DNA of 64,000 nt, from assembly GCA_026770705.1 (NCBI GenBank), contig JANJGN010000102.1, positions 434,001-498,000 of the forward strand, in the 5' to 3' direction. The number at the start of each line of letters is the position of its first letter. Within the stretch, counting starts at the first letter, position 1. This document shows positions 1 through 40,078 of this stretch, one piece after another. Source of the DNA: Isurus oxyrinchus. Lineage: Eukaryota. The notes under the pieces are model-generated. The model was given only the letters and a program-made list of their open reading frames with translations. It was not told the DNA's origin and made no database searches. The translations under genes and the position numbers were made by a program.

Positions 1-1941
1 CTGTGGAGGCCAGGTCATTGAGTGTATTTAAGACCAAGATAGATAGGTTCTTGATTGGTAAGGGGATCAGAGGTTACGAGGAGAAGGTGGGAGAATGAAG
101 TTGAGAAACATTTTATGCCATGATTGAATGGCGGAGCAGACTCGATGGGCCGATTGGCCTAATTTCTGCTTCTATGTCTTATGGTCTTATGGTCTAAGAG
201 ATAGGGAGGGTTGTAGGAGCTGCAGGAGGTTGCCATAAGATGTAGGAGCACAAGTAGGTCATTCGGCCCATCCAATCTGCTCTGCCATTCAATGAGATTA
301 TGGCTGATCTGATAAACCTCAAATCCGCTTCCCTGCCTTTTCCCCATAACCCTTGATTCCCTTATTGGTTAAAAGTCTGACACTTCCCTCCATGTCCAGC
401 CACACAGCAAAGATGCTCTCAGGCGGTGTACTTGAATGATAGAATTTTGCAGCACCAAAGGAGGCCATTCAGCCCATTGACTCTGTGCTATAAATCTGCT
501 GAGGCCACTGGAATTTTCATTAATCTGGATTGAGGAAATCTGGGTGATTTTATCTGAAGTCTTTTCTGCTCTGCCGCATTTTCTGAGGAGTTTTGAATCC
601 ATTGGCCTTCCATCTTCTGTAGCCAAGCCTTCCATCAACATAACCACCCTCCGCTTGCACCCTTACTTCTGATCTGCCGTGTGGATGGATTTTATCCAAG
701 AGTATAGCTCAGTATAGTTTTCTTATTTGTAAATAAATCTACCCATTAGTTTTAGCCTGAACGGAATGATTTACTTATAGTATCTACAATGTTTAAAGTC
801 AGGAGGAGGATTATTTTGGAACTAAAGGGTGATTGTTAATGTACGAGCTTTCAGGGTGTGAGCAAAGGCGTAGGCTTTGACTCACAGGGCGCTTAAACTT
901 CATTTAAATAAAATGTCATTCTGTCTCACAAGAGGCTCTTCAGTGCCTTTGGTCTACAAAGGGAGGATGGCGATTCCTGCCTATTTCAATTCTGCAATTA
1001 ACGGGTGTTTGCTTAGGCAAGGGTAGGTGTACAGGTCAGCCATGAGCTAACTGAACGGCAGGTGGAACAGGCTCAAGACACAGAATGGCCTGTTCCTGTG
1101 CTCTGATCAACATTCAGTTACACAACATTGAGCTTGGCAATGGGCCCTCCGCTGTTGAAAACCTTGCTGATGTTCACATGAGGAGGAGGAGTGGGCCAGA
1201 GGGCAACCAGCACCCATGGAGCGTAAGCCCTATTGACTTCAGGGAGAGAGGTGAGAAGACTTGGCAGAATCTGTTACATTAGCCAGCGTCCATGTTGATC
1301 TGACTTGTTAACACAGATCTGTAATAAAAATGCAGCAAAGTCTTTGTGAAGTTCTGGGGAAGAAACAGAGGAAGCATTCAAAAGCAAAACTGCATGTATT
1401 GTTAAAACATGGATTCATTTCTTTTCATTTCCTTCTAGACTCCTTCTAGACTCCTTCTAGTGGTACATGTTTGTATGGTAGCCTTGAGCAGACAAAATGC
1501 ACATTGCAATTTTCAATACACTGCGGTCATGTATATCCAAAGCCACTGATTAATGAGTGGTGTCTATTAACAGTGCATAGCACCAGAGAGTGCTGGGGCT
1601 TTAGCCTGCATATGCACAAGAGCCTCTTGTGAGACAGAATGACATTTTATTTAATGAAGTTGTTCCTCTCATTGGCAAGCTTAGTTGCATCCCTGGGGCA
1701 GCAATGTGCAGGGACGGGTGCAGCAGAAACGTCACTTGATTGGTTTCTGGCACTTTGTAGAAGCAAGATGCCAGGGATGTAGATGCCCGCCTGACAGCAG
1801 CCATGCCTGCCCACCCGCCCTCCCGTCTGTGTTGTGGCCCATAATCTCAAGGTGCCCAAGGGCCTGGGGAAAGAAACAAAGTTGTTCATACTAACCCGGC
1901 GCTGTGATATCTTCCGACCCTAATTCTACTTCGTTCCCCAG

Positions 1942-2043
1942 CTCCTAAGATGAAAAGCTGGCCGACTTACGGATACGTGACCGGGATAGTATTCATGATA
2001 CTTGGAATCATAGCCCTGGCTGGAGGAATCAGCAGGTGGAGAG
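1942..2043 (+). CDS. Second beta-chain (WB-like) paralogue: TM exon; upstream exons lie outside the window
   Basis: ttccccag| ... G|GTAGG, 102 nt, phase 1-1. PKMKSWPTYGYVTGIVFMILGIIALAGGISRWR carries GxxxxxxGxxxxxxG. Confidence 0.75.
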
Positions 2044-2108
2044 GTAGGAATATTGATGCATGTTCTAACCAACTCAGAAACTCCACCTGTTTGGCAATGA
2101 TGAGAGAT

Positions 2109-2502
2109 GGTAGTGTTGTGGTAATGTCACTGGACTAGTAACTCCAGAAGCCCAGGCTAATACTCTGGGGACACAGGGTATTCAAACCCCACCCCAGCTG
2201 CTGGTGGAATTTAAACTCAGTTAATAAAATCCAGAATTGGAAGCCAGTCTCAGTGATGGTGACCGTGAAACTACCATCGAATGTCATAAAAACCCCACCT
2301 GGTTCACTAATGTCCTTTAGGGAGGGAAATCTGCCGTCCTTACCCGGTCTGGCCGACACGTGACTCCAGACCCACAGCAATGCGGTTGACTCTTAACTGT
2401 CCCTCTGAAGTGGCCCTTAGCAAGATACTCAGTTTAGGGGGCAATTACAGACGGGCAACGATTGCTAGCCACGCCCACATCCCATGGAAGGATAAAGAAA
2501 AA
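2109..2502 (+). mobile_element. tRNA-derived SINE (further copies about 2900-3300 -, 29400-29710 -, 43478-43810 +, 44540-44810 -)
   Basis: A/B-box-like head, conserved ggttcactaatgtcctttagggagggaaatctgccgtcctt core, LINE-like tail ending A-rich. Confidence 0.75.
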
Positions 2503-2745
2503 TGATGTGCCTCCATGAGAGGGTGGCATGACAGATTTGTGTTTATAAGCCCCTGTGTACACAAAACCAGCCAGCCCATGAGTTCAGCCGTCACTTCCAT
2601 CTTTCCCCCATTAGGTGTTCCTGGATTGCAGAATGTGTTTCACTGGGGGATGGGTTTCACTGATTTCCGAGAGGATAGGGGCTGGCGGTGGGGAAGAGAG
2701 TGTCAGCCAAGGATTCGGAGCTAATGTTGACTATTTCTTTCCCAG

Positions 2746-2832
2746 GGCTCCATGCCTGTGGCTCACAACCTGAACCAAACCAGAGTCAAGTCAACACGCA
2801 TTCCAATGCGTATTCCTCTAACACGGATTTAG
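2746..2832 (+). CDS. Second WB-like gene: Ser-rich cytoplasmic exon
   Basis: ttctttcccag| ... G|GTAAC, 87 nt, phase 1-1. GLHACGSQPEPNQSQVNTHSNAYSSNTDL shares the HSNxxxS motif and size with 11236-11325. Confidence 0.68.
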   Translation, partial: GSMPVAHNLNQTRVKSTRIPMRIPLTRI

Positions 2833-3634
2833 GTAACAGAGTGACATTTGGTCTCTGCACTGTAGCACGCGTGCACAAGCACTTAATTTTCTTTTGTCCT
2901 TTCATGGGGATGTGGGCATTGCTGGCTAGCCCAGTATTTGTTGCCCATCCCCAATTGCCCCTTGAACTGAGTGGCTTGCTAGGGCCTTTCAGAGGGGAAG
3001 TTAAGAGTCAACCCCCACTGCTGTGGGACTGGAGTCATGTGTAGGCCAGACCAGGTAAGGACGACAGATTTCCTTCCCTAAAGGACATCAGTGAACCAGA
3101 TGGGGTTTTTACGACAATCGATGCCTAAAGGACAGCAGTTTTTACAACAAAGAAATCAATGCTATGAATATCTCGTTTTATATTCCAGATTTATTAATTA
3201 AATTTAAATCCCACCAATTGCTGTGTTGGGATTTGAACCTGTGCCCCCAAAGCATTAGCCTGGTCCTCTTAACTGTAAGTCCAGTGACAATACCACAATT
3301 CCACTGTCTCCTCAATGGTGCACTGTGTCTATAACCTCGCAGCTAAGTTCTGGATGGGAACTGCACTGTTGCTGAGGTGTGTGAAACTCATCCTCCACAT
3401 TAGCATGAGCTCTGCCCAACCTGCTTCAACTCTTGAGGTTCTTCAATCTTCCCAAGGACCCTTTCCCCAACTTCCTTCCCGATCTCAGTCCGGTAACTCC
3501 TGACGGAAAGCATGCAGGCAGACACAAGGCAAGGACGTTATCGGACCTGGCCGATGCTCACAGTCTGGCCTCCCACACAATGCACAACTCCTCAGATGAG
3601 CATAGAGGGTCTATGGACTCTGTGCCCCTGCAAG

Positions 3635-3666
3635 AGGCAGCGACTGCAGAGAAAGACAGATTGTAG
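3635..3666 (+). CDS. Second WB-like gene: last coding exon
   Basis: cccctgcaag| AG GCA GCG ACT GCA GAG AAA GAC AGA TTG TAG |GTAAAC = EAATAEKDRL*. Same KDxx-stop-donor design as 9131-9160. Confidence 0.55.
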
Positions 3667-4324
3667 GTAAACACCGAGAGAGACTATAGTGAAAGAGAGA
3701 CATGCTGCCAAAGCTTTTCATCTTGGACTCCTCAGGACGAACCTAAGAATGCCAACTGTCAGGCGATCACAACAGTTTATACTAGGGAGAAAGGTGCCAA
3801 TTGGTTGGCAGGTTGACTCTGATTGGCCGAGGAGTTACCATGGAGAAAGCAACAGGGAACCATTGGCTCCCTGAACTCCCGAGTAATTCAGAAAAGACAC
3901 AAACCTTGAACATGTTTCTTTTGCTTGCAGAGGGTGGGGCCCTGTGTATGAATGTATGTCACTTCGAGCAAGCATAAATGAGCCACATTACGTGCTTGAC
4001 TGATTATCTTAAATTGGTTGTTAGTGTCACTTGGCGCACTCAGGATTGTTCAGCAAATGCTGCACTTTGTCCTGACAAAAACATTGTTGGCAACACATCC
4101 CCTTTTCCAGCCATATTAAGTTCTGTGCTGTCAATTGACTGATGGTGAAATTACAGCAGCATTATAATTATCTTCTAAAATTAACGTGCTAGCACCATTC
4201 ACGTAGCCCTATACAGCTGCTCGGCAGCAATGGAGAATGTAACAGGAATTGGAGCGTTACAAACAATACTAAACTCTTGTTACCTGTAGATATCTGTCAT
4301 CCCCTCTTGCACTTTTCTTCCCAG

Positions 4325-4835
4325 GAGTATGGACACAGGGGGAGGCTAATCACCTCTATGTGGAAAGTGAACGGACTCCCAGACCCATACCCACTTGAAA
4401 CGGAGCATCAAACTCAGAACCCCCAACCCTCCCCATCCCCCTCCCAGATATCTGGAGACTGAGAGACGTCGGCTGAATCTGCCTCCACTCACCTTCCGAA
4501 AGAGCGTGTCCTGTGGAACCATGAGTCGGAATTCAGTCCAATCGATCACTTCAGAGACTGACTCAGAGGAGCTGACTCTGCGATACAATACACCTCTGGT
4601 TTAGTCTGTTTATTTAACTCTTACTACTCCAGGCTCTGTTAACCTGCGAGAAAAAAACTCATGGCTACTGTTCCACCCTTATTTAATTGATATAATTCTC
4701 ACGTGGCTCCTGCTTGTAGTTACTCCACCGTCACTTGTTACTTTCTGGATTGTTAAAATACATGAACGAGAATTATAAATGGAAACGAAATATACAAAAA
4801 CATAGGAACCAAATAAACTTTAATAGAAAATATGG
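4325..4835 (+). other. Probable 3' UTR exon of the second WB-like gene
   Basis: Pyrimidine-rich acceptor cttttcttcccag| at 4324, non-repeat sequence, AATAAA at 4812-4817. The end coordinate is approximate. Confidence 0.45.
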
Positions 4836-5229
4836 ATCCTCACACACAGAAGAATTAGGCTTTTGTTAATATAGATATAAACCTGATTGAAATTATTGGC
4901 TTTAATGTACAGCTCTCCCAATGATCTCCGATGCCACATTTGGCATCATTTGTTGATGTGACGGAGTTAGCAAAGTGCAGCAGTCAATTCATCATTAATT
5001 GCCCCCTTAAGGGCCCCAACTGGGGCTAGGGCTGGCCTTGGCTTCTAGGCTTCGTCCATCCCACTGTAAAATTTTGGACAGGCTGGGCAGGCTGGAGGAT
5101 GAAATCTCCCCACCAACTAGTCCGACAGTCCAGGAAAATAAAAGCTAAGCTCATTCATCTGGATTTCCACTCATGGGTGCTCATTCGTCCTTCAATCTTC
5201 GACACTGAATGCTCTTTTCAAACCAAATA

Positions 5230-9130: not shown

Positions 9131-9160
9131 CTTATACCGTGTCCTTTGTCAAGCCATCTC
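9131..9160 (-). pseudogene. WB: WB last coding exon
   Basis: ttctgtcttccag| GA GAT GGC TTG ACA AAG GAC ACG GTA TAA G |GTGAGT = GDGLTKDTV*, with a donor 1 nt after the stop. Confidence 0.7.
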
Positions 9161-11235: not shown

Positions 11236-11325
11236 CTGAAGTTGCACTGGAGGCTGAGGTGTTCGAATGCATGCTGGTCTGAGTGCGGTTCGACTTCCGC
11301 TGCTGTTGATTTTTCCAGAAAAGCA
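11236..11325 (-). pseudogene. WB: WB cytoplasmic exon 2 (Ser/Thr-rich)
   Basis: ttccctacag| ... G|GTAATG; 90 nt, phase 1-1. VLFWKNQQQRKSNRTQTSMHSNTSASSATS resembles the paralogous exon at 2746-2832. Confidence 0.72.
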
Positions 11326-11437: not shown

Positions 11438-11467
11438 CTTTTAGTCCAGGGATTCGGGGTTGGTAGC
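11438..11467 (-). pseudogene. WB: WB cytoplasmic exon 1
   Basis: ttccctttcag| GC TAC CAA CCC CGA ATC CCT GGA CTA AAA G |GTAAGT = (G)YQPRIPGLK; 30 nt, phase 1-1, strong splice sites. Confidence 0.75.
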
Positions 11468-13155: not shown

Positions 13156-13266
13156 CTTGACGTTTCATTCGAAAAACAGCTCCAGTTACGGCAGTCAGGA
13201 TGCCACTAATTCCGAACAATATTCCAACAATGGCCGCAGCAGACAGTGAGCTCTTACGTTGGGGGT
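13156..13266 (-). pseudogene. WB: WB connecting peptide/TM exon (frame intact)
   Basis: Acceptor ttttggaag|, donor G|GTACGG, 111 nt (the class II beta TM exon size). DPQRKSSLSAAAIVGILFGISGILTAVTGAVFRMKRQ carries the beta-chain GxxxxxxGxxxxxxG motif. Confidence 0.88.
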
Positions 13267-16855: not shown

Positions 16856-17126
16856 CCCAGTTGGTGCGGTGTCCATCTGGAAAAGTGACATGCTCCACAA
16901 AGCACGTGTACATGTCCTCTGTCTTGGGGTCAATGTTGATGAATGCAGCCGTCTGGAAGGCCTTCTCACTGTTGGGAAGGATCTGAGTCTGTACCACTTG
17001 CTCGTCAATGTTCCCATCATTTTTTAGCCAGGGCGCTTGGATCGAAGCCGGCGACTGTACACTGAAGTTGGCTGGAATGGTCAAAGTCTTCCAGATCGTA
17101 GAAGGAGATGGTCACTGAAGGGGACG
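16856..17126 (-). pseudogene. WB: WB beta2 Ig C1-set exon with a frameshifting deletion
   Basis: Acceptor ccattctcag|, donor TGG G|GTAGG. Frame A reads SPSVTISFYDLEDFDHSSQLQCTVAGFDPSA; frame B reads WLKNDGNIDEQVVQTQILPNSEKAFQTAAFINIDPKTEDMYTCFVEHVTFPDGHRTNW. Length 271 nt, 11 short of the usual 282-nt beta2 exon. Confidence 0.88.
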
Positions 17127-17264
17127 CTGAGAATGGACAGGGTTATTTTCAATTCAGCACTCCCTCTCACACCTGCTCCCAATATTTCCTCCAAGCCCGT
17201 CTCCCACTCTCACTGGGCTACTGCCTCCAAGGACAGTGACTGTTCTCTGCTACTTACCTTCATT

Positions 17265-18020
17265 AGGAACACAGGAACATGAGGAGGCCCATTCAGCCCC
17301 TCCTCGAGCTTGTAACACAAGAACAGGAGGAGGCCCATTCAGACCCTCCTCAAGCCTGTTACACAGGAACCAGAGGAGGCCCATTCAGCCCCTCGAGCCT
17401 ATTACACAGGAACAGGACAAGGCTCATTCAGTCCGTCATGAAGCCTGTTGCACAGGAACAGGAGGAGACCCATTCACCCCCTCCTTAAGCCTGTTACACA
17501 GGAACGGGGGAAGCCATTCAGCCTCCATTTCGAGCCTGTTACACAGGAACAGGAGGAGGCCATTCAGCCCCTCTCGAGTCTGTTATACAGGAACAGGATG
17601 TGGCCATTCTGCCACCTCTTGAGTCTGTTACACAGGAACAGGAAGAGTCCAGCCCCCTTCTCGAGCCTGTTACACAGGAACAGGAGGAGGCCATTCAGCC
17701 CCTCTCGAGTCTGTTATACAGGAACAGGAGGTGGCCATTCTGCCACCTCTTGAGTCTGTTACACAGGAACAGGAAGAGTCCAGCCCCCTTCTCGAGCCTG
17801 TTACACAGGAACAGGAGGAGGCCATTCAGCCCCTTTCGAGTCTGTTATACAGGAACAGGAGGTGGCCATTCTGCCACCTCTTGAGTCTGTTACACATGAA
17901 CAGGAAGAGTCCAGCCCCCTTCTCGAGCCTGTTACACAGGAACAGGAGGAGGCTATTCAGACCCCTCTTGAGCCTCTAACACAGTAACAAAAAAGAGGCC
18001 ATTCTGCATCCTCATGCCTA
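17265..18020 (+). repeat. About 43-bp minisatellite with a 131-bp higher-order unit (also about 23545-23865)
   Basis: Unit acacaggaacaggaggaggccattcagcccctcgagcctgtt. Confidence 0.9.
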
Positions 18021-24120: not shown

Positions 24121-24214
24121 TCACATCAGTGAATTGACAGCTTTCTCATCCATGGCATAAACGGAGTAATCTGATCCGTCACAGACACAATGCAGTTCCT
24201 GTAAGGAAGTGGAT
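24121..24214 (-). pseudogene. WB: WB: probable truncated 5' part of the beta1 exon
   Basis: Acceptor ctgttctttcag| followed, one base out of phase, by LQELHCVCDGSDYSVYAMDEKAVNSLM* and then unrelated G-rich sequence. Position and early Cys fit a beta1 start. Confidence 0.5.
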
Positions 24215-24683: not shown

Positions 24684-24768
24684 ATGGGCTGTCCAAGGCA
24701 AAAAAATAAAGCTGGTTTTCTCTGCGCATTGCTGTTAGCATGGCTGTTGGGCTCCGCGATAGAATGTG
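24684..24768 (+). CDS. WA: MHC W-category alpha chain (WA), exon 1: signal peptide
   Basis: ATG at 24684 reads MGCPRQKNKAGFLCALLLAWLLGSAIEC (basic N-region, hydrophobic core). Ends in a phase-1 donor G|GTAAG, as MHC leader exons do. Confidence 0.85.
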
Positions 24769-24874
24769 GTAAGATGATGATTTTAATCGATTCTTTAACT
24801 CTTTTTAACCCAATGTTAGGTTGGGGCGATGTCAGAGGAAGAATGTGAAATATTTACACACTTCTGTTACATTG

Positions 24875-25545
24875 AACATTCCCAGGGCACATACAGCATG
24901 ACGTTAGATACAGAGTAAAGCCCCCTCTACATTGTCCCCATTAGACAGTCCCAGGACAGGTACAGCATGGGATTAGATACAGATTAAAGCTCCCTCTACA
25001 CTGTCCCCATCAAACACTCCCAGGACAGATACAGCACGGGGTTAGATACAGAGTAAAGCTCCCTCTACACTGTCCCCATCAAACACTCCCAGGACAGATA
25101 CAGCACGGGGTTAGATACAGAGTAAAGCTCCCTCTACACTGTCCCCATCAAACACTCCCAGGACAGGTACAGCACGGGGTTAGATACAGAGTAAAGCTCC
25201 CTCTACACTGTCCCCATCAAACACTCCCAGGACAGGTACAGCACGGGGTAGATACAGAGTAAAGCTCCCTCTACACCATCCCCATCAAACAATCCCAGGA
25301 CAGGTACAGCACGGGATTAGACACAGAGTAAAGCTCCCCCTACACTGTCCCCATCAAACACTCCCAGGACAGGTACAGCACGAGGTTAGATACAGAGTAA
25401 AGCTCCCTCTACACCGTCCCCATCAAACACTCCCAGGACAGGTACAGCACAGAGTTAGATACTGAGTAAAGCTCCCTCTACACTGTCCCCATCAAACACT
25501 CCCAGGACAGGTACAACACAGGGTTAGATACAGGGTAAAGCCATC
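24875..25545 (+). repeat. 69-bp minisatellite array
   Basis: About 9-10 units. Confidence 0.95.
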
Positions 25546-25685
25546 TCAACTGGCACATTTTGGGGTTAATGGCTGTTGGTGAGTGGAGACTGACAGGTCT
25601 TTGTGAATTCTCAGCTCAGGTGGGAGAAAGACCAGCGTTGGTCTTGGAAACTGGAGATAGCTTAAGTTGTATTTGTATTTATAGG

Positions 25686-26882
25686 TGTTAGGAATAAGCT
25701 GTAGCTTTAAGTTTAAATTTAATTTTTATTTCTGTATTTGTTTTTTAAAGGAACCTGAGTTTTAATTTCGCTTTAAACTGATGCCTGCAATTTGAGGGCT
25801 TTGTTTGTATACCTGAATTCTACTAAGATTTTATGGCTCTTGAAGTAGGAAAAATTATGCTGTTGCCTAGCAACAGGGGGGTCCACAGAGACAGAATAGC
25901 AGTTTTAGTTCACTTGGAAGCAGGTGCCAGGAGAAGCTGGACACAAGAGAGGGGACTGCAGGAAGCAGGTTCGAAAGGATGAGAAGTTCCCAAACCAGGG
26001 AGTGGCTCAGGAGAAAAGTCCCAGGAAGACAGTGAAGTCAAGGGAGAAGAACAAGAATTTGAACAAGGTCCTGCCTAGTGAAGTTAAACTTAGGAGCAGA
26101 GGACAATGCTCCAAATTAAAGAGAGAAAGCTGCAGAGAACAGACTTAAAGCAAATTAGGCATGTTGGAAGGCAAAAGATCCAAGGAGACAGCTGAGGGTC
26201 GAAAACTCTTTACTATGAGCATGTGAAGCAGGCACGGCTGAGTATCGGAGAGAGAGTACAAGGAAGGCAAAGTTTGAATGCACATGGTGATCCAGAGGAG
26301 AGGAACATCAGAAGGAAAGATCGAAAGCCTGGAAGTGGACCCTTGTGGAAGGCGTCAGAGAGAAAACGTCATTTGGGAGAAGATTCTAAAGCAAATTCTT
26401 CACAAGTGGAGATTGGAAACCTTCGTATAAAAGATGAAGTTCAGTGAGCCCGGTTGGCTCACTGTGTGACAAGTGTCTGGGGGGAGCTGATGAGAGATCC
26501 TTCGCATGCATTTGGGGTGGCACTGTCACTTGGTTACAGAGTGTGGTGTGTCTGACCACAGGTCGATTATTGGTTTACATGGACTATGTACTTACAGTGA
26601 AGCTTAGAGGATAGGATAGCTTTTTAACTTGTGTTACCTTTATGAATCTATATATATCCATGAAGGTGTAGTTGTGGGTAATGGAGTATTGTTAATATAG
26701 TTCATCTTTTCTTGCTTAATAAATGTTTTATTGTTTTGTTAAAAATTCATCAGCTGTCTCCTGTGACTGTTCAGTGGCTGCCCTCCACGTTTCTAAATAA
26801 AAAATAAAAGTTAGGTTCTATCCAGCTGAGTTCCAACTTGGGATCTGAATTGTCCAGTAGTAACATCAGCTGGGATCGTAAC
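25686..26882 (+). mobile_element. Probable solo LTR in WA intron 1
   Basis: Begins TGTTA, ends GATCGTAAC, with AATAAA signals near the 3' end and no coding content. No clear TSD. Confidence 0.45.
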
Positions 26883-27059
26883 TGACGCTTAGTCCGTTTT
26901 TAGGTGACAGTGGCTGTCACCCTCTAAATATCACACACCAGATGTCATGCTGCACACATCTTAACCATTCTTGCAAATGATTATTTCAAAGCAGAGAGAA
27001 AGAGGGAGAGAGAGAGAGAGGAATTCTAGTCAAGGGTAGGAATCAGATGGAACAGTCAG

Positions 27060-28220
27060 AGAATGGCTGTGGCACAGAAGGAGACATTCAGCCCATCGTG
27101 CCCTCTGCAAGAGATCTCACCCAGTCCCACTCCCAACCTTTTCCCCGTAACCCTGTACATTCTTCCTTTTCATATAACAATCCAATTCCCCTTTTGAAAG
27201 CCTCGACGGATCCTGCCTCCATCAGGCTCTCAGGCAGCACATTCCAGATCCTAACCACTCGCTGTGTGAAAAAGTTTCTCCTCATGACTCCATTGCTTAG
27301 AACCATAGAAAAGTTACAGTGCAGAAAGAGGCCATTCAGCCCATTGTGTCTGTACCGGCCATAAAGAGAAAAGAAGTTAACCTCTTTTTTAATCCCACTT
27401 TCCAGCACCTGGTCCATAGCCTTGCAGGTTACAGTACCTCAGGTGCAGATCCTGGTACCTCCTAAATGTGTTGAGTGTTTCAGCCTCAACCACTAATTTC
27501 AGGCAGTGAATTCCAGATCCCCACCACACTCTGGGTGAAGAAGTTTTTCCTCATGTCCTCTCTAATCATTCTATCAATCACCTGAAATCTGTGCCCCCTG
27601 GTAATTGACCCCTCAGCTAGGGGGAAACGGGTCTTTCCTGTCTATCCTATCTAGGCATCTCATAATTTTGTACACCTCAATTAGGTCACCCCTCAGCCTC
27701 CTCTGTTCTAAGGAAAACAACTCCAGCCAATCCAATCTTTCCCCATAGCTGCAATTTTCCAGCTCTGGCAACATTCTTGTAAATTTCCTCTGTGCTCTCT
27801 CCAAAGCGATTATGACCTTCTTGTACAAAAAATTCCAGCTGTGGCCTAACCAGCATTTTATACAGTTCCATCATTTCATTCCTCCTTTTGTATTCAATAC
27901 TTCATCCAATAAAGGAAAGCATTCCACATGCTTTCTTGATCACTTTGTCCACCTGTCCTGCCACCTTCAGGGACCTGCAGACATGCAGTCCAAGGCTTCT
28001 CACTTCCTCAACCTCTCTCAATATCCTCCCGTTTATTGAGTAGTCCCTTGTCTTTTTTGAACCCCCTCCAAATGCATCTCTGGATTAAATCCATTTGCCA
28101 CTTTTCCGCCCACTCAACCAAACTTTCTTTTGCCAATTGCCTTAAATCTGTCTCCTCTGGTTCTCGATTCTTCCACCAAGTTTCTCCCTATCTACTCTGT
28201 CCCAGGCCCCTCATGATTTT
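27060..28220 (-). mobile_element. CR1 3' fragments
   Basis: LELFSLEQRRLRGDLIEVYK; RRNFFTQRVVRIWN. Confidence 0.8.
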
Positions 28221-28639
28221 CAAAGTGGAATCGTTATATTTTATAAGATATTCCAAACCATCTTTGATTAATAAGCTAAAGCATGAATGTCTGAATATGA
28301 CTGATTGCACCTATGTTATTTACTTTATTAACTACAATAGCTGAGGGAACACAATAGTTCGCTTAATATCCAAAGCACATATTTCATTCTGCTTTTTTCA
28401 TTCTGCCAGTGTGCAAATAAATCATCGCAATTGAATTCCTTGGTGCAACGTTCCTTGTATACGATGGTAACCTGCACCAGCTGTCTTCTTTTATTCTGCA
28501 TTATTTTCAGGATAATGTGGGTGTCCTTTACCTAGCATTCATAGCAGCAGGGAAACCAGCCAATCCCCCTCCCTTTTCTTTTCTGTTCCAGTCTCACTCA
28601 GCCAACCCCCCCCTCCGCACCCTCACTTCTTCTTCCAGT

Positions 28640-29320
28640 ACATTGATGACAGCCGCTTCCTCTGCTGGTCCTGAACCGGAACATTTCAATCAACTTTGCT
28701 TCCAATCTCCACACTTATGTTCAGTCCACGGGCGTCACCCTGAAATTCTGGTTGCCTGTCTCTTTAATTTTCCACCTCACTCTGACTCTGATCTCCCTGC
28801 CCTCGGTCTGCAGTGCCGTTCTGATTCTGACCTCCCTGCCCTCGGCCTGCGGCGTTGTTCTGACTCTGACTTCCATGTCCTCGGTCTGCGGTGCCGTTCT
28901 GACTCTGACCTCCCTGCCCTCGGACTGTGGCGCCATTCCAATGAAGCTCAAGGAGTAACACATCTTTTAATTAGTCGCTTTACAGCCTTCTGGACTCAAC
29001 ATTGAGTTCAACAATTTTAGATCATAATCTCTATTCCCATGCTTTGGGCGGCAGCTGTTGGTGATGATCCTATGTTTCCCGTTTACACCTCCTCTAGATC
29101 TATCATCCATTTCTATTTTGTCTAATTACCATCTTTTTTGTCCTTGCACCCTCCTCCCATTTGTCATTTAATCTCTCCCGTCTTCTCTACCCTATTCCAG
29201 ACCTTCACTTTTGTTCTTCCTACCCCTCCCCACTCCTCTGTATTTGTTTGAAACCTGTCATCTCTCTTTCCCCAGCTCCAATGTAAGGTCTTCGAGCTTG
29301 AATGTTAACCCTGTTTCCCT
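28640..29320 (+). mobile_element. Decayed Penelope-like 3' fragment with an internal 42-bp tandem repeat (about 28780-28935)
   Basis: Similar to 15870-16050 (ttgcctgtc..tttaa, ttccaatgaagctcaa, acagccttctggactcaacattgagttcaacaa). Confidence 0.65.
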
Positions 29321-30786
29321 CGACAGCATTACTGCCTTGGCTCTGGACCATTCCTGGCTTTTTCAGAGTCCCTTACTTATGCTTGTGTGTTTATTTTCTA
29401 TTCCTTCTTGGGATGTAAGTGTTGCTGGCGAACCGGCATTTGCTGCCCACCCCAAATTGCTTCTTGAACTGAGTGTCTCACTAGAGCCACTTCAGAGGGG
29501 CCAATTAAGAGTCAGCCACATTGCTGTGGGCCTGGAGTCACATGTAGGCCAGACTGGGTAAGGATGGCAGATTTCCTTACCTGAAGGGACAGTGAACCAG
29601 ATGGGGTTTTTACACCAATCCAGTAATCTCATGATTATATCAGCTTTTTAAATTCTGGGTTTATTAATGAATTTCATTTACATTTCCCCAGCTGCCATGG
29701 TGGGATTTGAATTCATGGGCAGGATTTTTTGAATGGGTCCCGCGCCATCACCCACAGAGTCAATGGGGACACTACCTCGCTGATCCTGGCAGCCGTTGAA
29801 CACTCCATGAGGCTTTCGTTGTCTAAGTTTGAGGCCATTGCCTCACCACCACCCCCATCCCCCGCCCCCACCCACCCCCCCCCCACCCCACCCCAAACCT
29901 GGGGAGGGGGAGCCATCGTAAGAGAGCTGCTGGTTAACCTGATTGGCTGACAGAACTATAGTCCCAGCAGCGCCACGTTTGAGCGGTGCCCACTGCTAAG
30001 GCTACAGCCAGTCCTCGAAGAGGAGGTTATGAAGGCCGGTGTTTTTTTATTCTTTCATGGGATGTGGGCATCGCTGGCTAGACCAGCAACTATTGCCACC
30101 CCCTATTGACCTTGAGAAGGTGGTGGTGAGCCGCCTTCTTGAACTACTGCAATCCCTGTGCTGTAGGTACACCCACAGCACTACTAGGGAGGGAGTTCCA
30201 GGATTTTGACCCAGCGACAGTGGAGGAACGGCTGATGTATTTCCATGTCAGATGGTGAGTGGGTCGGAGGGGAGCTCACAGGCGGTAGTGTTCCCATGTG
30301 TCTGCTGCCTTTGTCCTTCTAAGTAGTAGTGGTCGCGTGTTTGGGCGGTACTGTCACAGGAGCCTTGGTGAGTTGCTGCAGTGCATCTTGTCGATGGTAC
30401 ACACACTGCTGCCCCTGTGTGTTGGAGGGAGTGAATGTTAAAGGTGTGGATGAGGTGTCGAACAAGCAGGGCTGCTTTGTCTTGGATGATGCCCATGGAG
30501 TGGCCAGGTAAAGAGCCTCAACAGGTCCAGGGGGCCCCACACCTCCACTGCCCCCCTCCCACCACCCCCACCCCCACCACCCCCCCACCCCCCTCCATAA
30601 GATAAGAGACAGCTCGGAGTGGGTGGGTACGTGGCAGACAGGCCACTTGCTGCATATCACCAGCAGTGCCACCGGGTTCGCAAGTGGGGGGGAACCATAA
30701 AACCATGGCTCTGGATTATGAGCCCAATGACATCCACAGTAAGTTACCATCCCCTGAAGCTGATCCCAATTATTTTTCACTTCTAG

Positions 30787-31035
30787 CAGAGCAAAGAGTG
30801 CGGGGGATGATTTTCAGCGTCTCTGACAGCCGGACCTCCATCGTCACCTCGACCACTGATGACATGACCCTCGCCTACCATAACAGCACCGAGTCCAACT
30901 TTGTGTTCCTTATCGAGGCGCTGAATGCGCTCCATGCTGAGTCAAACAATCTCATCCAGAAATACCAGAGCTATCTGACATTGAATGAAATCTTTCTCAA
31001 CGAAATGGCGAACCGCATCCCGGAGAAACAAAACG
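30787..31035 (+). CDS. WA: WA exon 2: alpha1 (membrane-distal) domain
   Basis: Acceptor ttttcacttctag| (NAGNAG alternative at 30790), phase 1-1, 249 nt, donor G|GTAAT. Reads AEQRVRGMIFSVSDSRTSIVTSTTDDMTLAYHNSTESNFVFLIEALNALHAESNNLIQKYQSYLTLNEIFLNEMANRIPEKQN. TTDDMTLAYHNS resembles the MHC alpha1 VDDxxFVxFDS segment. Confidence 0.85.
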
Positions 31036-32482
31036 GTAATTTGAATAGTCACTTGGTGGTACGGAATATGAGCATTGGTGAAAAACAGACATGATGTTGA
31101 AACTTTTTGTCTCACAATCATCAGGATAGATGGAAGAATGCCAAATTTCAAAGGGGAGAGAGAACAAAGAATGACACTAAGAACTACACCAATGACCATT
31201 TTTAAATTATCAGTGGGATTCGCACATACACATGCTAGAAGCTACATATATTCATATGCAGGGACCTGCCCTCTGCAGACAGAAGGAACATATCCAGCCA
31301 TGGCACCTTTTTCGAACTAAATAAAAGTGTGAGGGACAAAAGCTCCCTGGTGCATTCTCCATGGCAACACCTTGACCAATAAGAATTGACTTTCCAGCCA
31401 ATCAGCACCCTATTCTCATGCAGTATAAATTGTTGCTCCCTCAGAAATTTGGCATTCTTGCTTCTGTCCTGGTGAGTCCAAGAGAAAAAGCTTTGACAGC
31501 ATGTTTCTTTTCTCAGCAATCCTCAAATGCTGTACTGTCAGGTGACCAGTCTTTAATTCTATGATTCCTTTCTCAATTACCTCATGCTCCCCCTCATAGA
31601 GTTAAACAGCACAGAAACAGGCCCTTCAGCCCGTATTTGTCTCAGTTTGAGATATCCCATCCACCCCATCGCCTGCTTTATGCTCAGTTCTCAATCCTCC
31701 TCCCTTACTTATTGGAACATCCCGGGAGCTCCAAGACGGTGAGGCACTAGGCTCGGGACACGAGTCAAGGAACAGGGGAGGCCATTCAGCCCCTTGAGCC
31801 TGCATCACCATTCAATCCAATCGTGGCTGATCTACAACCTAACTCCATTTTAGGCCACACCTGGAGTCACTGTGAGCAGTTCTGGGCATCACACCTTCGG
31901 AAAGATATGCTGACCTCGGAGAGGGTTCTGTATTGATTGACCAGAATGATCCCTGGACTCCAAGGGTTAAATTCTGAGGAGAGGTATCAGAAACTATGCT
32001 CATATTCCCTGGAATTGAGAAGATTAAGGGGGTGATCTGAACAAAGTTTTCGAGATATTCATGGGAACTGATAGCTCTGATTGAGAGGGATCGTTTCTCG
32101 CTGGTCGGGGGGGTAGGGTAGTCTGGGACAAGGGGGCAGAGTCTGAAAATGAGAGCTAGACCCTTCAGGAGTGAAGTGAGGAAAAACTCCTACACACAAA
32201 GGGTGGTTGGAGCTTGAAACTCTCTTCCCCAAATGGCCATTGATGCCGGGTCAATTGTTAATTTTAAATCTGTGAGATTGAGAGATTTTTGCTAACCAAA
32301 GGTTTTAAGGGATACTGGGCGAAGGCAGGTAGGTGGAGATAGGTGACAGATCAGACATGATCTCGCTGAATGGTCAAAGTCTTCCTGTTCTGTCTATTTG
32401 GGGGGGGCGATCTGCTTAATTTTGAAGATGCGAGCTCTGCTGCTAACACCCCCTTTCAAGTTTTTAACCTTGTGCCTTCCAG

Positions 32483-32761
32483 ACGACCCCATAGTGTTGC
32501 TTTATCCGGGTGAACCCTTCACCTTAGGGGGGAAGAACACCCTGAATTGTTTTGTGAGTCATCTGTTTCCGCCAGTGGCCCATGTGTCCTTCCTGAAGAA
32601 CGATCAGCCCCTATCTGGGCAAGTGAGGTCCTCGCAGTTCACCTTCGACAACAGCTGGACGTTTCAAATCTTGAAATATGTGCAAATTGAGCCTGCTGTC
32701 GGGGACAACTATTCGTGTGTGGTGGAGCTAGTCACCAAGGAGCAGTTCCAAGCCTACTGGG
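32483..32761 (+). CDS. WA: WA exon 3: alpha2 Ig C1-set domain with beta-2-microglobulin-like residues
   Basis: Acceptor ccttccag|, 279 nt, phase 1-1. Reads DDPIVLLYPGEPFTLGGKNTLNCFVSHLFPPVAHVSFLKNDQPLSGQVRSSQFTFDNSWTFQILKYVQIEPAVGDNYSCVVELVTKEQFQAYW. Two Ig cysteines; FTFDNSWTF parallels b2m LSFSKDWSF; VSFLKN lacks the canonical C-strand Trp. Confidence 0.92.
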
Positions 32762-33645
32762 GTACAGTCCATCATTAAAACTGGGGTACATTGATCATTA
32801 ACACTGCGGTATACTTATCATTAATACTGGGGTACAGACCATCATTAACACTGGGGTACAGATCATCATTAACACTGGGGTACAGTCCATCATTAGCACT
32901 GGGGTACAGATCATCATTAACACTGGGGTACCCTGATCATTAACACTGGGGTACAGACCATCATTAACACTGGGGTACAGATCATCATTAACACTGGGGT
33001 ACAGTCCATCATTAGCACTGGGGTACAGATCATCATTAACACTGGGTTACCCTGATCATTAACACTGGGGTACAGACCATCATTAACACTGGGGTACAGA
33101 TCATCATTAACACTGGGGTACAGTCCATCATTAGCACTGGGATACAGTTATCATTAACACTGGGATATACTGATCATAAACACTGGGGTACAATTATTAA
33201 CACTGGGATACACTGATCATTAACACTGGGGTACCCTGATCATTAACACTGGGGTGCAGTCCATCATTAACACTGGGGTACACTGATCATTAACACTGGA
33301 ATACAATCCATCATTAACACTGGCGTACAGTCTGTCATTAACACTGGGATATACTGATCGTTAACACTGGGATAAAGTGATCATTAACACTGGGGTACAC
33401 TGACCATTAACACTGGGGTACACTGATCATTAACACTGGGGTACACTGAACCTTAGCACTGGGATACACTGAACCTTAGCACTGGGATACACTGATCATT
33501 AGCACTGGGGTTTACTGAACATTAGCACCAGGGTACAATCCATCATTAACACTGGGATATACTAATCATTAACACTGGGGTACACTGATCATTAACATTT
33601 GGGTAAAGTCCATCATTCACAGTGGGATACAGTATGTCATTAACA
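32757..33645 (+). repeat. About 22-24-bp minisatellite starting at the WA alpha2 splice donor
   Basis: Unit ctggggtacagtccatcattaaca. Confidence 0.93.
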
Positions 33646-34385
33646 GTGCGACACAGTAACTGACAGACAAGGCACAAACTGACAGACAGACATTTACAGA
33701 CTGACAGACAGGCAGAGACGAATTGACAGACATAGACTGCGAGGCAGACAGGTGCAGACTGAGACAGATAGACACAGACTGATGGAAAGATACACAGGCA
33801 GACATTGACAGCCGGTAAAAACACACTGAAAGACAGATACACACAGGGCAGACAGGGGTTTCAGACCCATTCACAACAGCAGAGGTGAAGGTAGACACGG
33901 TCAGAGACAGACACACACACACACCACACACACAGTGACAAACACACACACACAATCACAGAAACCCACAGTCATAAACACTCACTGTCACAAACACAGT
34001 CACAAAGATACACACTGTCATATATATGCACACAGTCGTAAATGCACACACAATCACAGACACACACTCATAACATGCAGTCACAGGCACACACATAGTC
34101 AAAGACATACACAGTCACAGACACACACAGTCATAAACACAGACAATCACAAACACACACAGTCACAAACACACACAGTCACAAACACACACAGTCATAA
34201 ACACACACAATCACAAACACACACAGTCACAAACACACACAGTCACAAACACACACAAAGACATACACAGTCACAAACACACACAGTCACAAACACACAC
34301 AGTGAAAGACATACACAGTCACAAACACACACAGTCACAGACACACACAATTACAAACACACACACAATCAAAGACATACACACA

Positions 34386-35975
34386 GGGCAGAATTTTACA
34401 TCTCGCAGACGAGTCCCCACCCGACGTGATTGGGTGTAAAATAGTGCGCGATGACATCAGGTGAGCGTCCCGACGTCATCCTGCGCTCACACGATATTTT
34501 GCTCAGTGAGCGCACATGGGAGTCGGAGCCGTGCCCATCATCAATTAGAAGGCTGCTTCAGGCCATTAAAAAGGCAATTGACCAAGGTTTCACGTTGCCT
34601 GCGATTTCATGCTCATTGCACGGGTAGGTGGGCAGCCGACATTTTGGCAAAACCTCATCCAAGGACGGGATAAAAAGGGTTAGCAGCATTGCCAGTGTGA
34701 GGACTTTGGTAGATAGTTTGCTGCCGGTTCCTTATTGGTACTTGGCAGCTTCATCTCTGTCCAGGGCTTCATTGATAGCATTTCCAGGCTGGATGTGAGG
34801 ACTCCTTGATGTTTTCAAGGCTCCTGGAGGATTTTGACCGTATAGACCCTTCCAGGTGTGACCCTGGTAATGGGGATTGTGCTCCCCGCTGGAGGCACCT
34901 CCTCTGAAGAGGAAGAGAGGGGCAGAAGGGAGAGGAGGCCTGCTATCCCAATGCAGCTTCTGGGGGGGAGCGAACTGTGGGGGGAAAGGTGCAGGCACAG
35001 CGGGCACAGAGCCAGCAGGTATCCCACAGCGGAAGGGGCCTCAGTGGACGCCACTATCCTGCTGCCAGGGTTTACAGGTGGCAGTGCAGCTACATCAATA
35101 TGTCCGGCTGACCCACTGGTGCCTTGATGGCCACATGTGTGCAGTCGATGGTACCCTGGACGCAGGGGAACCTAGCAATCATTGCAAAGCCTCTGGCTCA
35201 CTCAACCTGGCTGGCCTCGTTCGTACGGAAATGAATAACTGTCAGTGCCCACCTGATCAGAGCTTCTCTCACCAGCTTCATGCAACTGTGAACAGCTGAC
35301 TGGGAGACTCCACACAGATTCCCCACTGACCCCTGGAAAGTGCCAGAGGCATAGAAGTTGAGGAGCACTGTGGCCTTCAGAGCCACTGGCTTGAGGTGTC
35401 CACCCACACAACCGGAGATGATCTCAGATCCAGTCATCTGGCAAACGGAGGTCACGGTCTCCCTTGAGAGGCAGAGCCTCCTTCGGCATTGCACCTCCGA
35501 CATATAGAGGTAGCTGCATCGCCGCCTGTAAACCCTAGCAGCAGGATAGTGGCATCTTCTGCAGCCCCTTCTGCCTTGGACTACCTGCTGGCCCTGCACC
35601 CCCTGTGCCTGCACCTCTCATCCCACAGGTCGCTCCCCTGGAGGCTGAATATCGACACCTGGCCTCCTCCCCCTTCTGCCCTCTCTTCCTCCTCAGAGGA
35701 GGTGCCTCCAGCGGAGACCACAATATCCATTACCTGGGTAACAAGAGGATGTTTGATACCTGGAAGGGTCCACATGATCTGAATTCTCCAAGGTCCTTAG
35801 AGACACCAAGGAGTCCTCAATTGAAGTCTGGAAATGCTAACAATGAAGCCCCAAACAGAGATGAAGCTGCTATATAGCAATAAGTCACCAGCAGCAAACT
35901 ATCTACCAAACTCCCCACTTCTCATTTTGGCAATGCTGCTGACCCTTTTTATCCCATCCGTGGATGAGATTTTTG
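34386..35975. mobile_element. PIF/Harbinger transposon remnants: two left-end pieces in inverted orientation
   Basis: Minus-strand LNFYASGTFQGSVGNLCGVSQSAV and FPCVQGTIDCTHVAIK (HARBI1-like DDE motifs). Terminus GGGCAGAATTTT at 34386. Confidence 0.8.
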
Positions 35976-36637
35976 AAAAAAAACAGTCACAAACAAACAC
36001 ACACACAGTCACGCACACACACACAGTCACAAACACACTCAGTCACAAACACAGTCACAAACAAACACCACACAGTCTCAATCACAGTCACACACGTACA
36101 CACAGAGTCACAAACACGCTCAGTCACAAAGTCACGCACGCACACACACAATCACAAACATGATTAGTCACAAACATAGTCACAAACAAACACACATATA
36201 GTCTCAAACACAGTCACGCACGCACACACACAGTCACAAATACGCTCAGTCACAAACAAAGTCACGCACGCACACACACAGTCTCAAATACGCTCAGTCA
36301 CAAACAAAGTCACGCACGCACGCACACACACAGTCACAAATACGCTCAGTCACAAACAAAGTCACACACGCACACACACAGTCACAAACACGCTTAGTCA
36401 CAAACACAGTCACAAACAAACACACACAGGCACAAACACGCTTAGTTACAAACACAGTCACAAACAAACACATACACACACACAGTCACAAACACGCTCA
36501 GTCACAAACACAGTCACGCACAAACACACACACACAGTCAAAAATATGCTCAGTCACAAAAACAGTCACGCATGCACACACACACACACGATCACAAACA
36601 CAGTCGCGCACAAATACACACACACACACACACACAC

Positions 36638-36753
36638 GGCAGAATTTTATGACAGCGGGGATTTTACATTCCCGCTGTTGTCAATGGCATTTATAACAGC
36701 CCGCCGCATTTTACGGCTCTGTCCCCATGGTAACGGGGCCGTAAAATTCTGCC
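36638..36753. mobile_element. MITE sharing its terminus with the Harbinger element
   Basis: TIRs GGCAGAATTTTA ... TAAAATTCTGCC, flanked by CAC on both sides within a CA-rich tract. Confidence 0.75.
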
Positions 36754-36916
36754 CACACGGTCACAAACATGCTCAGTCACAAACACAGTCATGCACAAAT
36801 ACACATACACATTTACACACACACAGTCAAAATCATGCTTAGTCACAAACACAGTCACGGACAAGCACACACACACAGACAAAAACATGCTCAGTTACAA
36901 ACACAGTCATGCACAA

Positions 36917-36949
<33 letters not shown>

Positions 36950-37276
36950 GACAAAAACATGCTCAGTCACAAACACAGTCACGCATACACACACAGTCAC
37001 AAACATGCTCAGTTACAAACACAATCACGCATTCACACAGTCACAAACAGTTACACACACACACACACACAGTCACAAACACAATCGCAGTCACAGACAT
37101 ACACACACACTCACAAATCTGCTCAGTCACAAACACAGTCAGGCACACACACACATACACAAAGAACGCACACACACAAACATTTACACACAGACTCATA
37201 CAAACGCACACATATTACATACACATAGAGAATCAAACTAACTAAATTAAACTAACTAATACCCTTCGATTTACAG

Positions 37277-37401
37277 AGGCAACGGCATCAGACAATCATA
37301 AAAACCCAGTACAGATTGCAATCTGCACAGTCGGCTTTGTGATTGGTGCCCTGGGGATGATGACTGGCCTCTGCCTGATTTTCTACAAGCGGGGAAATGA
37401 G
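37277..37401 (+). CDS. WA: WA exon 4: connecting peptide and transmembrane segment
   Basis: Acceptor tttacag|, donor GAG|GTAAAT (phase 0). EATASDNHKNPVQIAICTVGFVIGALGMMTGLCLIFYKRGNE carries the class II alpha-chain TM motif CxxGxxxGxxGxxxG. Confidence 0.9.
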
Positions 37402-37671
37402 GTAAATCGATTTAATTGTCTCTGGGGGCGGATATCTCTGACCTTCCAGCCAAACAAATTGCTGAGAAATAGGTTTCTCTCCAAACTCCTCTTTGTTAAT
37501 GAACTATGCTCAGCACCGGCAACAATCAGCACAGGAGAAATTAAACTGTTCACGGTGGAATGAGTTTGAGGTAGTTAGTATTGATTGCTCAAATCTCACA
37601 CCAAACTGCATGGGGTAGGGTAAAACTCGAATGAGACCAGTAAAGAACTCTGTTCTCAGTTGAAAATTTGA

Positions 37672-39648
37672 AGGGGACTGTGTAGAGGAGCTTTACTCTG
37701 TACCTAGCCCCGTGCCGTACCTGTCCTGGGAGTGTTTGATGGGGACAGTGTAGAGGGAGCTTTACTCTGTATCTAACCCCGTGCTGTACCTGTCCTGGGA
37801 GTGTTTGATGGGGACAGTGTCGAGGGAGCTTTACTCTGTATCTAACCCCGTGCTGTACCTGTCTTGGGAGTGTTTGATGGGGACGGTGTAGAGGAGCTTT
37901 ACTCTGTATCTAACCCCATGCTGTACCTGTCCTGGGAGTGTTTGATGGGGACAGTGTAGAGGGAGCTTTACTCTGTATCTAACCCTGTGCTGTACCTGTC
38001 CTGGGAGTGTTTGATGGGGACAGTGTCGAGGGAGCTTTACTCTGTATCTAACCCCGTGCTGTACCTGTCCTGGGAGTGTTTGATGGGGACGGTGTAGAGG
38101 GAGCTTTACTCTGTATCTAACCCCATGCTGTACCTGTCCTGGGAGTGTTTGATGGGGACAGTGTAGAGGGAGCTTTACTCTGTATCTAACCCTGTGCTGT
38201 ACCTGTCCTGGGAGTGTTTGATGGGGACAGTGTACAGGGAACTTTACTCTGTATCTAACCCCGTGCTGTACCTGTCCTGGGAGTGTTTGATGGGGACAGT
38301 GTAGAGGGAGCTTTACTCTGTATCTAACCCTGTGCTGTACCTGTCCTGGGAGTGTTTGATGGGGACGGTGTAGAGGGAGCTTTACTCTGTATCTAACCCC
38401 GTGCTGTACCTGTCCTGGGAGTGTTCGATGAGAACGGTGTAGAGGAAGCTTTAAACTTTATCAAAACCCGTGCTGTACCTGTCCTGGGAGTGTTTGATGG
38501 GGTCAGTGTACAGGGAACTTTACTCTTTATCTAACCCCGTGCTGTACCTTTCCTGGGAGTGTTTGATGGGGACGGTGTAGAGGGAGCTTTACTCTGTATC
38601 TAACCCCGTGCGGTACCTGTCTTGGGAGTGTTTGATGGGGACAGTGTAGAGGGAGCTTTACTCTGTATCTAACCCCGTGCTGTACCTGTCCTGGGAGTGT
38701 TTGATGGGGACAGTGTAGAGGGAGCTTTACTCTGTATCTAACCCTGTGCTGTACCTGTCCTGGGAGTGTTTGATGGGGACGGTGTAGAGGGAGCTTTACT
38801 CTGTATCTAACCCTGTGCTGTACCTGTCCTGGGAGTGTTCGATGAGAACGGTGTAGAGGAAGCTTTAAACTTTATCAAAACCCGTGCTGTACCTGTCCTA
38901 GGAGTGTTTGATGGGGTCAGTGTACAGGGAACTTTACTCTGTATCTAACCCCGTGCTGTACCTGTCCTGGGAGTGTTTGATGGGGACGGTGTAGAGGGAG
39001 CTTTACTCTGTATCTAACCCCGTGCTGTACCTGTCCTGGGAGTGTTTGATGGGGACGGTGTAGAGGGAGTTTTACTCTGTATCTAACCCCGTGCTGTACC
39101 TGTCCTGGGAGTGTTTGATGGGGACGGTGTAGAGGGAGCTTTACTCTGTATCTAACCCCGTGCTGTACCTGTCCTGGGAGTGTTTGATGGGGATGGTGTA
39201 GAGGGAGCTTTACTCTGTATCTAACCCCGTGCTGTAGCTGTCCTGGGAGTGTTTGATGGGGACGGTGTAGAGGGAGCTTTACTCTGTATCTAACCCCGTG
39301 CTATACCTGTCCTGGGTGTGTTTGATGGGGATGGTGTAGAGGGAGCTTTACTCTGTATCTAACCCCGTGCTGTACCTGTCCTGGGAGTGTTTGATGGGGA
39401 CGGTGTAGAGGGAGCTTTTCTCTGTATCTAACCCCGTGCTGTACCTGTTCTGGGAGTGTTTGATGGGGACAGTGTAGAGAGAGCTTTATTCTGTATCTAA
39501 CCCCGTGCTGTACCTGTCCTGGGAGTGTTTGATGGGGACAGTGTAGAGGCAGCTTTATACCGTATCTAACCCCGTGCTGTACCTGTCCTGGGAGTGTTTC
39601 ATGGGGACGGTGTAGAGAGAGCTTTACACTGTATCTAACCCTGTGCTT
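37672..39648 (-). repeat. 69-bp minisatellite array
   Basis: About 28 units, reverse orientation. Confidence 0.95.
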
Positions 39649-39949
39649 CAATACCCCTGGACTAAGGAGGCTTCAGACATCCTGGTTCCCTGATCTCTTT
39701 GCCAGTGAGCCCTATCCATTTGGGACAGTTTCGGTTTGGCTATCGTGCTACCTCCAAGGTCGATTAGCCTACCGAGATCTACCACATGCATGAAGAACAG
39801 CTGCCAGGGTGTGCTATCTGAGACCCATGGAAACTATAGCCCTTAAAGCAGCAGAGGAGAACGGCGGGTGGGCAGAATATTGAATCTGATGGCTGGGTGC
39901 TCGGTTTGGCAGACACCCAGCACTACAAATATCTTTTGTCACAAACAAG

Positions 39950-40078
39950 GTGGGGTCCAGGGATCAGCAAACCATACCTGCGGAGGAGCCACAGGACTCG
40001 ATGCTGAATGGAGAAGGGGCACAAGATGAAGGGACCCGTGTGGATCGGAGTGATCCAAACCAACCAGCAGAATGTTGA
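39950..40078 (+). CDS. WA: WA probable exon 5: cytoplasmic tail
   Basis: Acceptor cttttgtcacaaacaag|, phase 0 matches exon 4. 129 nt open to TGA: VGSRDQQTIPAEEPQDSMLNGEGAQDEGTRVDRSDPNQPAEC*. No homology check was possible. Confidence 0.55.
   Translation: MGSRDQQTIPAEEPQDSMLNGEGAQDEGTRVDRSDPNQPAEC

What the first reader, a model, noticed from the sequence alone, without database searches (positions are those of the whole stretch)
1942..4835. A second, diverged WB-like gene converges tail-to-tail: a W-category cluster
Seen: exon-by-exon parallels with the minus-strand gene, namely the GxxxxxxGxxxxxxG TM, a PGL mini-exon, an HSNxxxS exon of 87 vs 90 nt, and a KDxx-stop exon followed at once by a donor. 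Low identity implies an old duplication. Inference: the layout is WB> <WB(pseudo) WA>, probably with another WA to the left, and the intact WA may pair with this other beta chain.
Basis: partly seen in the sequence, partly recalled or inferred. Interest (0 to 1): 0.75.

Follow-up and report, generated by a model that had tools for sequence, protein, structure and literature searches.

The report
Broken copy of shark MHC-W gene
This is the back half of an already described shark immune gene (the MHC W-category beta chain DS1) in an already described gene cluster; its immunoglobulin exon is broken here, so it is likely a dead duplicate and unlikely to be a spare partner for the neighbouring alpha chain.

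Summary
The plus-strand gene is real and is a W-category beta chain, but it is the known WB-DS1 (Okamura 2021). Its exons 1942-2043, 2746-2832 and 4325 onward match white shark DS1 at 31/33, 27/28 and 21/23 residues. The minus gene is WB-DS3 and the alpha gene WA-Nds3L. Multicopy shark W clusters, including a pseudo-WB beside this WA, are published.

The PGL mini-exon and KDxx-stop exon appear in 0 of 23 related chains and are not spliced into either laid transcript contig. The true last exon starts at 4325.

It has a 13-nt frameshifting deletion and lacks its last 189 nt. DNA of a related shark shares the 13-nt deletion, while transcript contigs of both organisms appear to carry another beta2. 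White shark has two DS1 models on one contig, one without beta2.

Most likely this is a pseudogene copy in a tandemly repeated block (0.65); an intronic relic exon is the main rival. Pairing with the intact WA is unsupported. Already known; low interest.

The parts
623..702 (+). 5' fragment of the WB-DS1 beta2 (Ig C1) exon: AG acceptor, 13-nt frameshifting deletion near 660, in-frame stop, last 189 nt absent
   Evidence: tblastn of DS1 proteins hits 619-660 and 660-701 in two frames; 77 nt where the orthologue has 90; 3' two-thirds not found in the window
1942..2043 (+). WB-DS1 connecting peptide/TM exon with class II beta glycine spacing
   Evidence: 31/33 and 32/33 identical to white shark P0013 and P0001; covered by RNA-like contigs in X17 and X18
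2615..2636 (+). PGL stretch; possible vestige of the DS3-type mini-exon, not a used exon
   Evidence: nearest donors out of frame; weak likeness; RNA depth 0 in bin 2514-2664; 0 of 23 related chains
2746..2832 (+). 87-nt cytoplasmic exon, alternatively skipped
   Evidence: 27/28 identical to white shark; GT..AG joint 2832 to 4325 in X18, depth 312; with/without isoforms in 5 species
3596..3666 (+). KDRL-stop-GT stretch; intronic, not a used exon
   Evidence: no likeness to the DS3 last exon; only an unspliced depth-3 contig 3607-3790 is listed over it; 0 of 23 related chains end so
4325..4900 (+). true terminal exon: 23 codons, stop 4396-4398, 3' UTR (AATAAA at 4812; RNA contigs run on past 4900)
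   Evidence: 21/23 identical to white shark; X18 contig 4323-4900, X17 contig 4443-4900
9131..17126 (-). WB-DS3 pseudogene: beta2 16856-17126 (271 nt, frameshifted), TM 13156-13266, exons 11438-11467, 11236-11325, 9131-9160; beta1 and leader not found
   Evidence: Dataset S2/S3 rows
24684..40078 (+). WA-Nds3L, intact: exons 24684-24768, 30787-31035, 32483-32761, 37277-37401, 39950-40078
   Evidence: 288 aa open, 279/288 identical to white shark P0024

Best explanation
The finding is the TM and tail half of the shark W-category beta gene WB-DS1; its beta2 exon in this window is frameshifted and cut short, so this copy is likely a pseudogene left by a tandem duplication of part of the W cluster, and the working DS1 chain likely comes from a sister copy elsewhere. 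The working gene splices TM to an optional 87-nt exon to a last exon at 4325, giving a long and a short tail. It would pair, class II-style, with its own head-to-head alpha partner (likely DS10). The intact WA-Nds3L here would pair with an intact DS3 copy from another repeat. Shown: identity, exon use, the two lesions. Inferred: pseudogene status, the sister copy in this species, gene conversion keeping the copies' 3' parts alike, and the pairings.
For: Identity: exon-by-exon match to white shark DS1. Lesions: 13 nt missing inside 623-702 and 189 nt missing after it. Position is that of the real beta2 exon, 1.24 kb before TM: in organism B, contigs have 109 unlaid letters past 702 and 38-60 unlaid letters before 707. 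Organism B DNA matches 502-702 with 0 gaps, so it has a copy with the same 13-nt deletion. Transcript contigs of A and B lie only on 660-702 (42 nt each), then join 1941 through unlaid letters, so the expressed beta2 differs from this one. White shark has two DS1 models on one 9.48-Mb contig, one whole (XP_041035565) and one running beta1 to TM with no beta2 (XP_041035582), plus repeated Nds3L. PMC10751288 Suppl. Fig. 3 and 5 list two DS3, three Nds3L and a pseudo-WB beside XP_041037342, the top hit of this WA. An intron contig of B has 10 private differences in 707-1022 and none in 1023-1231 among those listed (18 of 22 shown; p about 0.006): two versions that differ near beta2 and are alike further on.
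Against: The organism A transcript differs from the window by only 1 of 104 nt in TM and 5 of 458 nt in the distal UTR, as if it came from this very locus; the pseudogene reading needs conversion or a recent copy. The TM and tail exons are open with good splice sites. Okamura's white shark DS1-like entry joins P0001-type beta1 and TM to an intact beta2. The letters between 702 and 1941 in the transcripts were not shown, so their being an intact beta2 is inferred from length (735 nt 5' of TM against 589 needed). No DNA left of the window was available. Raw reads of a second individual were too thin (about 1-3x) to confirm either lesion.
Confidence: 0.65

Rival explanations
1. The gene is functional. 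623-702 is an old decayed duplicate of the beta2 exon inside the intron, the real beta2 lies left of the window, and the TM and tail exons here are the expressed ones.
For: The A transcript is about 99% identical to the window in TM and distal UTR. The fragment is more diverged from white shark beta2 (20/26) than the other exons are (79/84). It would explain why B shares the 13-nt deletion.
Against: It does not explain the white shark model that skips beta2 beside a whole second copy, the two intron versions in B, or why 113 nt of the A transcript at 4325-4442 did not lie on the window at 88%. Against basking shark the fragment is no more diverged than the other exons (22/26 against 73/84).
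Confidence: 0.18
2. One DS1 locus with two old alleles, a working one and a beta2-null one shared between species; the window shows the null haplotype. The extra 189-nt loss is private to it or an assembly error.
For: A divergence peak around beta2 with near-identical flanks fits alleles too. The best DNA holders share 0.91 of the words but may be the window's source.
Against: Two DS1 models lie on one white shark contig, and the neighbouring genes are repeated there, which points to copies, not alleles.
Confidence: 0.09
3. The copy is alive in short form: all exons are phase 1, so skipping the dead beta2 gives an in-frame beta1-TM-tail chain without an Ig domain.
For: The white shark model XP_041035582 has this form, and its beta1 differs from the whole copy by one residue. 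TM and tail exons are open.
Against: That model is a chimera that begins with exons of a neighbouring gene. No beta1-to-TM transcript was seen, though beta1 lies outside the laid stretch. Conversion alone can keep the exons open.
Confidence: 0.05
4. One reading: this beta chain is intact and pairs with the widowed WA-Nds3L.
For: The DS3 neighbour is dead, the WA is intact, and both TMs keep class II glycines.
Against: Broken beta2 here; DS3 models exist in other white shark repeats; published pairs are head-to-head neighbours; salamander WA did not mature with a distant (fish) WB.
Confidence: 0.03

Closest known systems
[quoted passage not shown] 2021, PMC8713811)
   Same: TM, optional 29-aa exon and last exon match at 91-97% (white shark); same long/short tail isoforms; same cluster with DS3 and Nds3L.
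   Different: The beta2 exon is frameshifted and lacks its last 189 nt in this window.
White shark model XP_041035582 (LOC121272835)
   Same: DS1 beta1 joined straight to TM with no beta2; best TM match (32/33).
   Different: It is a chimeric prediction that starts with adaptor-gene exons and an Nds5L tail exon; its genomic beta2 could not be read.
Elasmobranch W-type clusters (Verissimo et al. 2023, PMC10751288, Suppl. Fig. 3)
   Same: Multicopy WA/WB outside the MHC; a pseudo-WB beside WA XP_041037342; SIT1 among the neighbours in sawfish.
   Different: No broken DS1 copy is listed there.
WB-DS3 (minus-strand neighbour)
   Same: Homologous TM and HSN exons from an old duplication.
   Different: DS3 uses a 30-nt mini-exon and a KDTV-stop last exon; DS1 uses neither.

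Membership tests
W-category beta chain (WB) | Class II beta-type TM with spaced glycines | tested here: met
   G-x6-G-x6-G in 1942-2043; matches the WB rows of Dataset S3
WB subgroup DS1 | Orthology to DS1 rather than DS3, Nds5L or class IIB | tested here: met
   TM score 162-174 to lamniform DS1, 48 to DS3, 41 to a class IIB; three exons 91-97% identical. No tree was built. The sevengill chain's TM scored higher with the minus TM (82 against 62)
W-category beta chain (WB) | Class II architecture: leader, beta1, Ig C1 beta2, TM/CY | tested here: inconclusive
   beta2 start and TM/CY present; leader and beta1 lie outside the window; the orthologue has all parts
W-category beta chain (WB) | P57 and no W61 (mostly G61) in beta2 | tested here: inconclusive
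   These positions fall in the part missing from the window; the white shark orthologue has P and G there, read by eye from Dataset S2
W-category beta chain (WB) | Head-to-head WA partner | not testable with these tools
   5' end outside the window; no genome held
W-category beta chain (WB) | Heterodimer and surface expression with WA | not testable with these tools
   shown only for salamander in PMC8713811
Functional WB-DS1 gene | Intact beta2 exon | tested here: not met
   13-nt deletion, stop, 189 nt missing; an intact exon left of the window is not excluded
Conventional MHC class IIB | MHC_II_beta domain and invariant W61 | tested here: not met
   tested on the orthologue P0013: PF00969 15.5 bits, cut-off 20.9; G, not W, at 61
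W-category alpha chain Nds3L (neighbour) | Y8, F/L37 and W61 in alpha2 | tested here: met
   read by eye against the Dataset S2 row; C1-set 59.9 bits

The most novel reading that the evidence does not exclude
Mackerel sharks keep a duplicate DS1 whose beta2 exon died before their species split but whose beta1, TM and tail stay matched to the working copy. Skipping the dead exon in frame would give a one-domain W beta chain that acts as a decoy or regulator of WA pairing.
Probability: 0.06. Interest if true: 0.55.

Novelty: already known. Interest (0 to 1): 0.2.

Why it matters
W-category molecules are proposed intermediates between MHC class II and class I, and their function is open (PMC8713811). 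This window adds no new member. It adds a small birth-and-death detail: both beta genes flanking an intact alpha gene appear broken, and one lesion is shared with a related shark. The practical use is a warning not to clone this copy for pairing tests. No W-category chain was among the 60 best of 668 PDB matches of the orthologue.

Tried and rejected
- No genome is held, so the left flank could not be read.
- No listed holder is on record as RNA; X17 and X18 are 'RNA?' guesses, though X18 shows a GT..AG joint.
- Raw reads X21 gave about 1-3x depth in unique sequence and no verdict on the lesions.
- The X17 TM-to-4325 joint rests on length alone (113 letters between, 113 expected with the 4-nt indel; 200 with the 87-nt exon).
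- DS3 beta1/leader and DS1 beta1 and beta2 3' part: no credible tblastn hit in the window, while the DS3 beta2 control hit at 5e-33. A 12-motif scan found none either. The window has a 303-N gap near 53.2-53.5 kb, away from these genes.
- Pfam gave nothing above cut-off for the TM, tail, KDRL or adaptor exons.
- No complex prediction was run: any class II-like alpha/beta pair tends to pass by likeness to solved structures, so it could not tell DS1 from DS3.
- Earlier findings of this scan: none.
- Paper searches showed no report of a broken DS1 copy. The SI Appendix PDF of PMC8713811 (Fig. S11, the white shark cluster) could not be read and may describe one.

Full report
What was checked. The window is shark DNA. 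Its alpha gene is 279/288 identical to a white shark protein, so the species is a close lamniform relative. No genome is held. I mapped exons by script, fetched relatives, laid 4 of 24 listed runs on 400-4900 and read the literature.

Papers seen. PMC8713811: main text parts 1-5 of 6, Dataset S3 parts 1-2 of 3, Dataset S2 part 1 of 6 and searched rows, Dataset S1 searched rows. Its SI Appendix PDF was unreadable. PMC10751288: 8 passages and supplement parts 95-96 as extracted text, whose layout may be off. PMC12619710: 4 passages. PMC13399432, PMC12674619 and PMC11429698: listing only.

Identity. [quoted passage not shown] They match RefSeq P0013 at 31/33, 27/28 and 21/23 residues. The minus gene is DS3: its beta2 exon is 271 nt and frameshifted, and no beta1 or leader was found. 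The alpha gene is Nds3L and is intact. [quoted passage not shown] Verissimo et al. call elasmobranch W genes multicopy. They list seven on white shark chr35 plus a pseudo-WB beside WA XP_041037342, the top hit of this window's WA. So gene, cluster and a pseudo-WB neighbour are in print.

TM and the 87/90-nt exons are homologous: 7 of 2000 shuffles each at DNA level, 1 and 5 of 5000 at protein level (the DNA shuffle is my own approximate dinucleotide shuffle). The PGL stretch has a good acceptor and the right spacing, and the intron behind it resembles DS3's somewhat (15 of 2000), so it may be a vestige. Its nearest donors are out of frame. The KDRL-stop stretch is no more like the DS3 last exon than chance (627 of 2000). 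Neither peptide occurs in 23 related chains from 11 species, isoforms included and so not independent; one holds PGL inside its 87-nt-type exon. In X18 the 87-nt exon joins 4325 by GT..AG at depth 312. Depth is 0 in the mini-exon bin in X17 and X18, and the KDRL stretch has only an unspliced depth-3 contig listed (many rows were not shown). With/without isoforms exist in white shark, basking shark, houndshark, catshark and sevengill.

At 623 an AG acceptor opens a DS1 beta2 exon. It lacks 13 nt near 660, hits a stop, and ends at 702; 189 nt are missing and occur nowhere in the window. Organism B, whose letters at 2777, 4383 and 4394 give the white shark residues, has a DNA contig over 502-702 with 5 substitutions and no gap, so it shares the 13-nt deletion. 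That contig runs 109 unlaid letters past 702, and two contigs carry 38-60 unlaid letters before 707, so the larger loss is not shared. The transcript contigs of both organisms lie only on 660-702 and then join 1941 through letters not shown. I infer that they carry a whole beta2 from another copy.

Mechanism. White shark has two DS1 models on one contig, a whole one and one that runs beta1 to TM without beta2. The second starts with exons that here lie right of the WA (49910-50846) and includes an Nds5L tail exon. That order suggests a tandemly repeated block of DS1, DS3, Nds3L and an adaptor gene (inference). Two DS3 and three Nds3L models agree. I take the window's DS1 as the beta2-dead copy of such a block, kept alike to the working copy in its 3' half by conversion. 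B's intron contig differs from B's DNA only near beta2: 10 listed differences in 707-1022, none in 1023-1231. Against this, the A transcript is about 99% identical to the window in TM and distal UTR, and Okamura's white shark entry has this copy's beta1 and TM with a whole beta2. An intronic relic exon with the real beta2 further left (0.18) and an old null allele (0.09) therefore remain open.

Pairing. With three pairs and the names Nds3L and Nds5L (my reading: next to DS3, next to DS5), DS1 is left with DS10. In catshark the DS10-type WA accessions 468 and 529 flank the DS1 accessions 469 and 527. This is indirect. Nothing supports Nds3L pairing with DS1, and other DS3 copies would serve it.

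Verdict. Observation partly confirmed, interpretation partly supported, already known. The one detail not found in my searches is the broken DS1 beta2, and the unread SI Appendix may hold it. Interest 0.2.

Noticed in passing
window 2116-2510 and 2879-3298: An inverted pair of repeat elements (74% identical over 428 nt) brackets the skipped 87-nt exon and is predicted to fold into a long RNA stem (no shuffles). It could promote skipping, but skipping is older than these sharks and the link is untested.
   Followed up: partly
window 49910-52936 (+): Exons of a small type III membrane adaptor with a YGNI motif, likely SIT1-like (motif likeness recalled; SIT1 lies in the sawfish W cluster; no Pfam hit). 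Its first two exons open the chimeric white shark model XP_041035582.
   Followed up: partly
window 4325-4465: A tract more diverged from organism B (10 substitutions and a 4-nt indel in about 140 nt) than the rest of the exon; the organism A transcript did not lie on most of it. Possibly an unconverted tract.
   Followed up: partly
window 17127-24683: No DS3 beta1 or leader found between the DS3 beta2 exon and the WA start; the DS3 pseudogene seems to have lost its 5' half.
   Followed up: yes
window 896-940 and 1618-1661: A 45-nt inverted repeat, 98% identical, in the beta2-TM intron.
   Followed up: no
   Followed up: no
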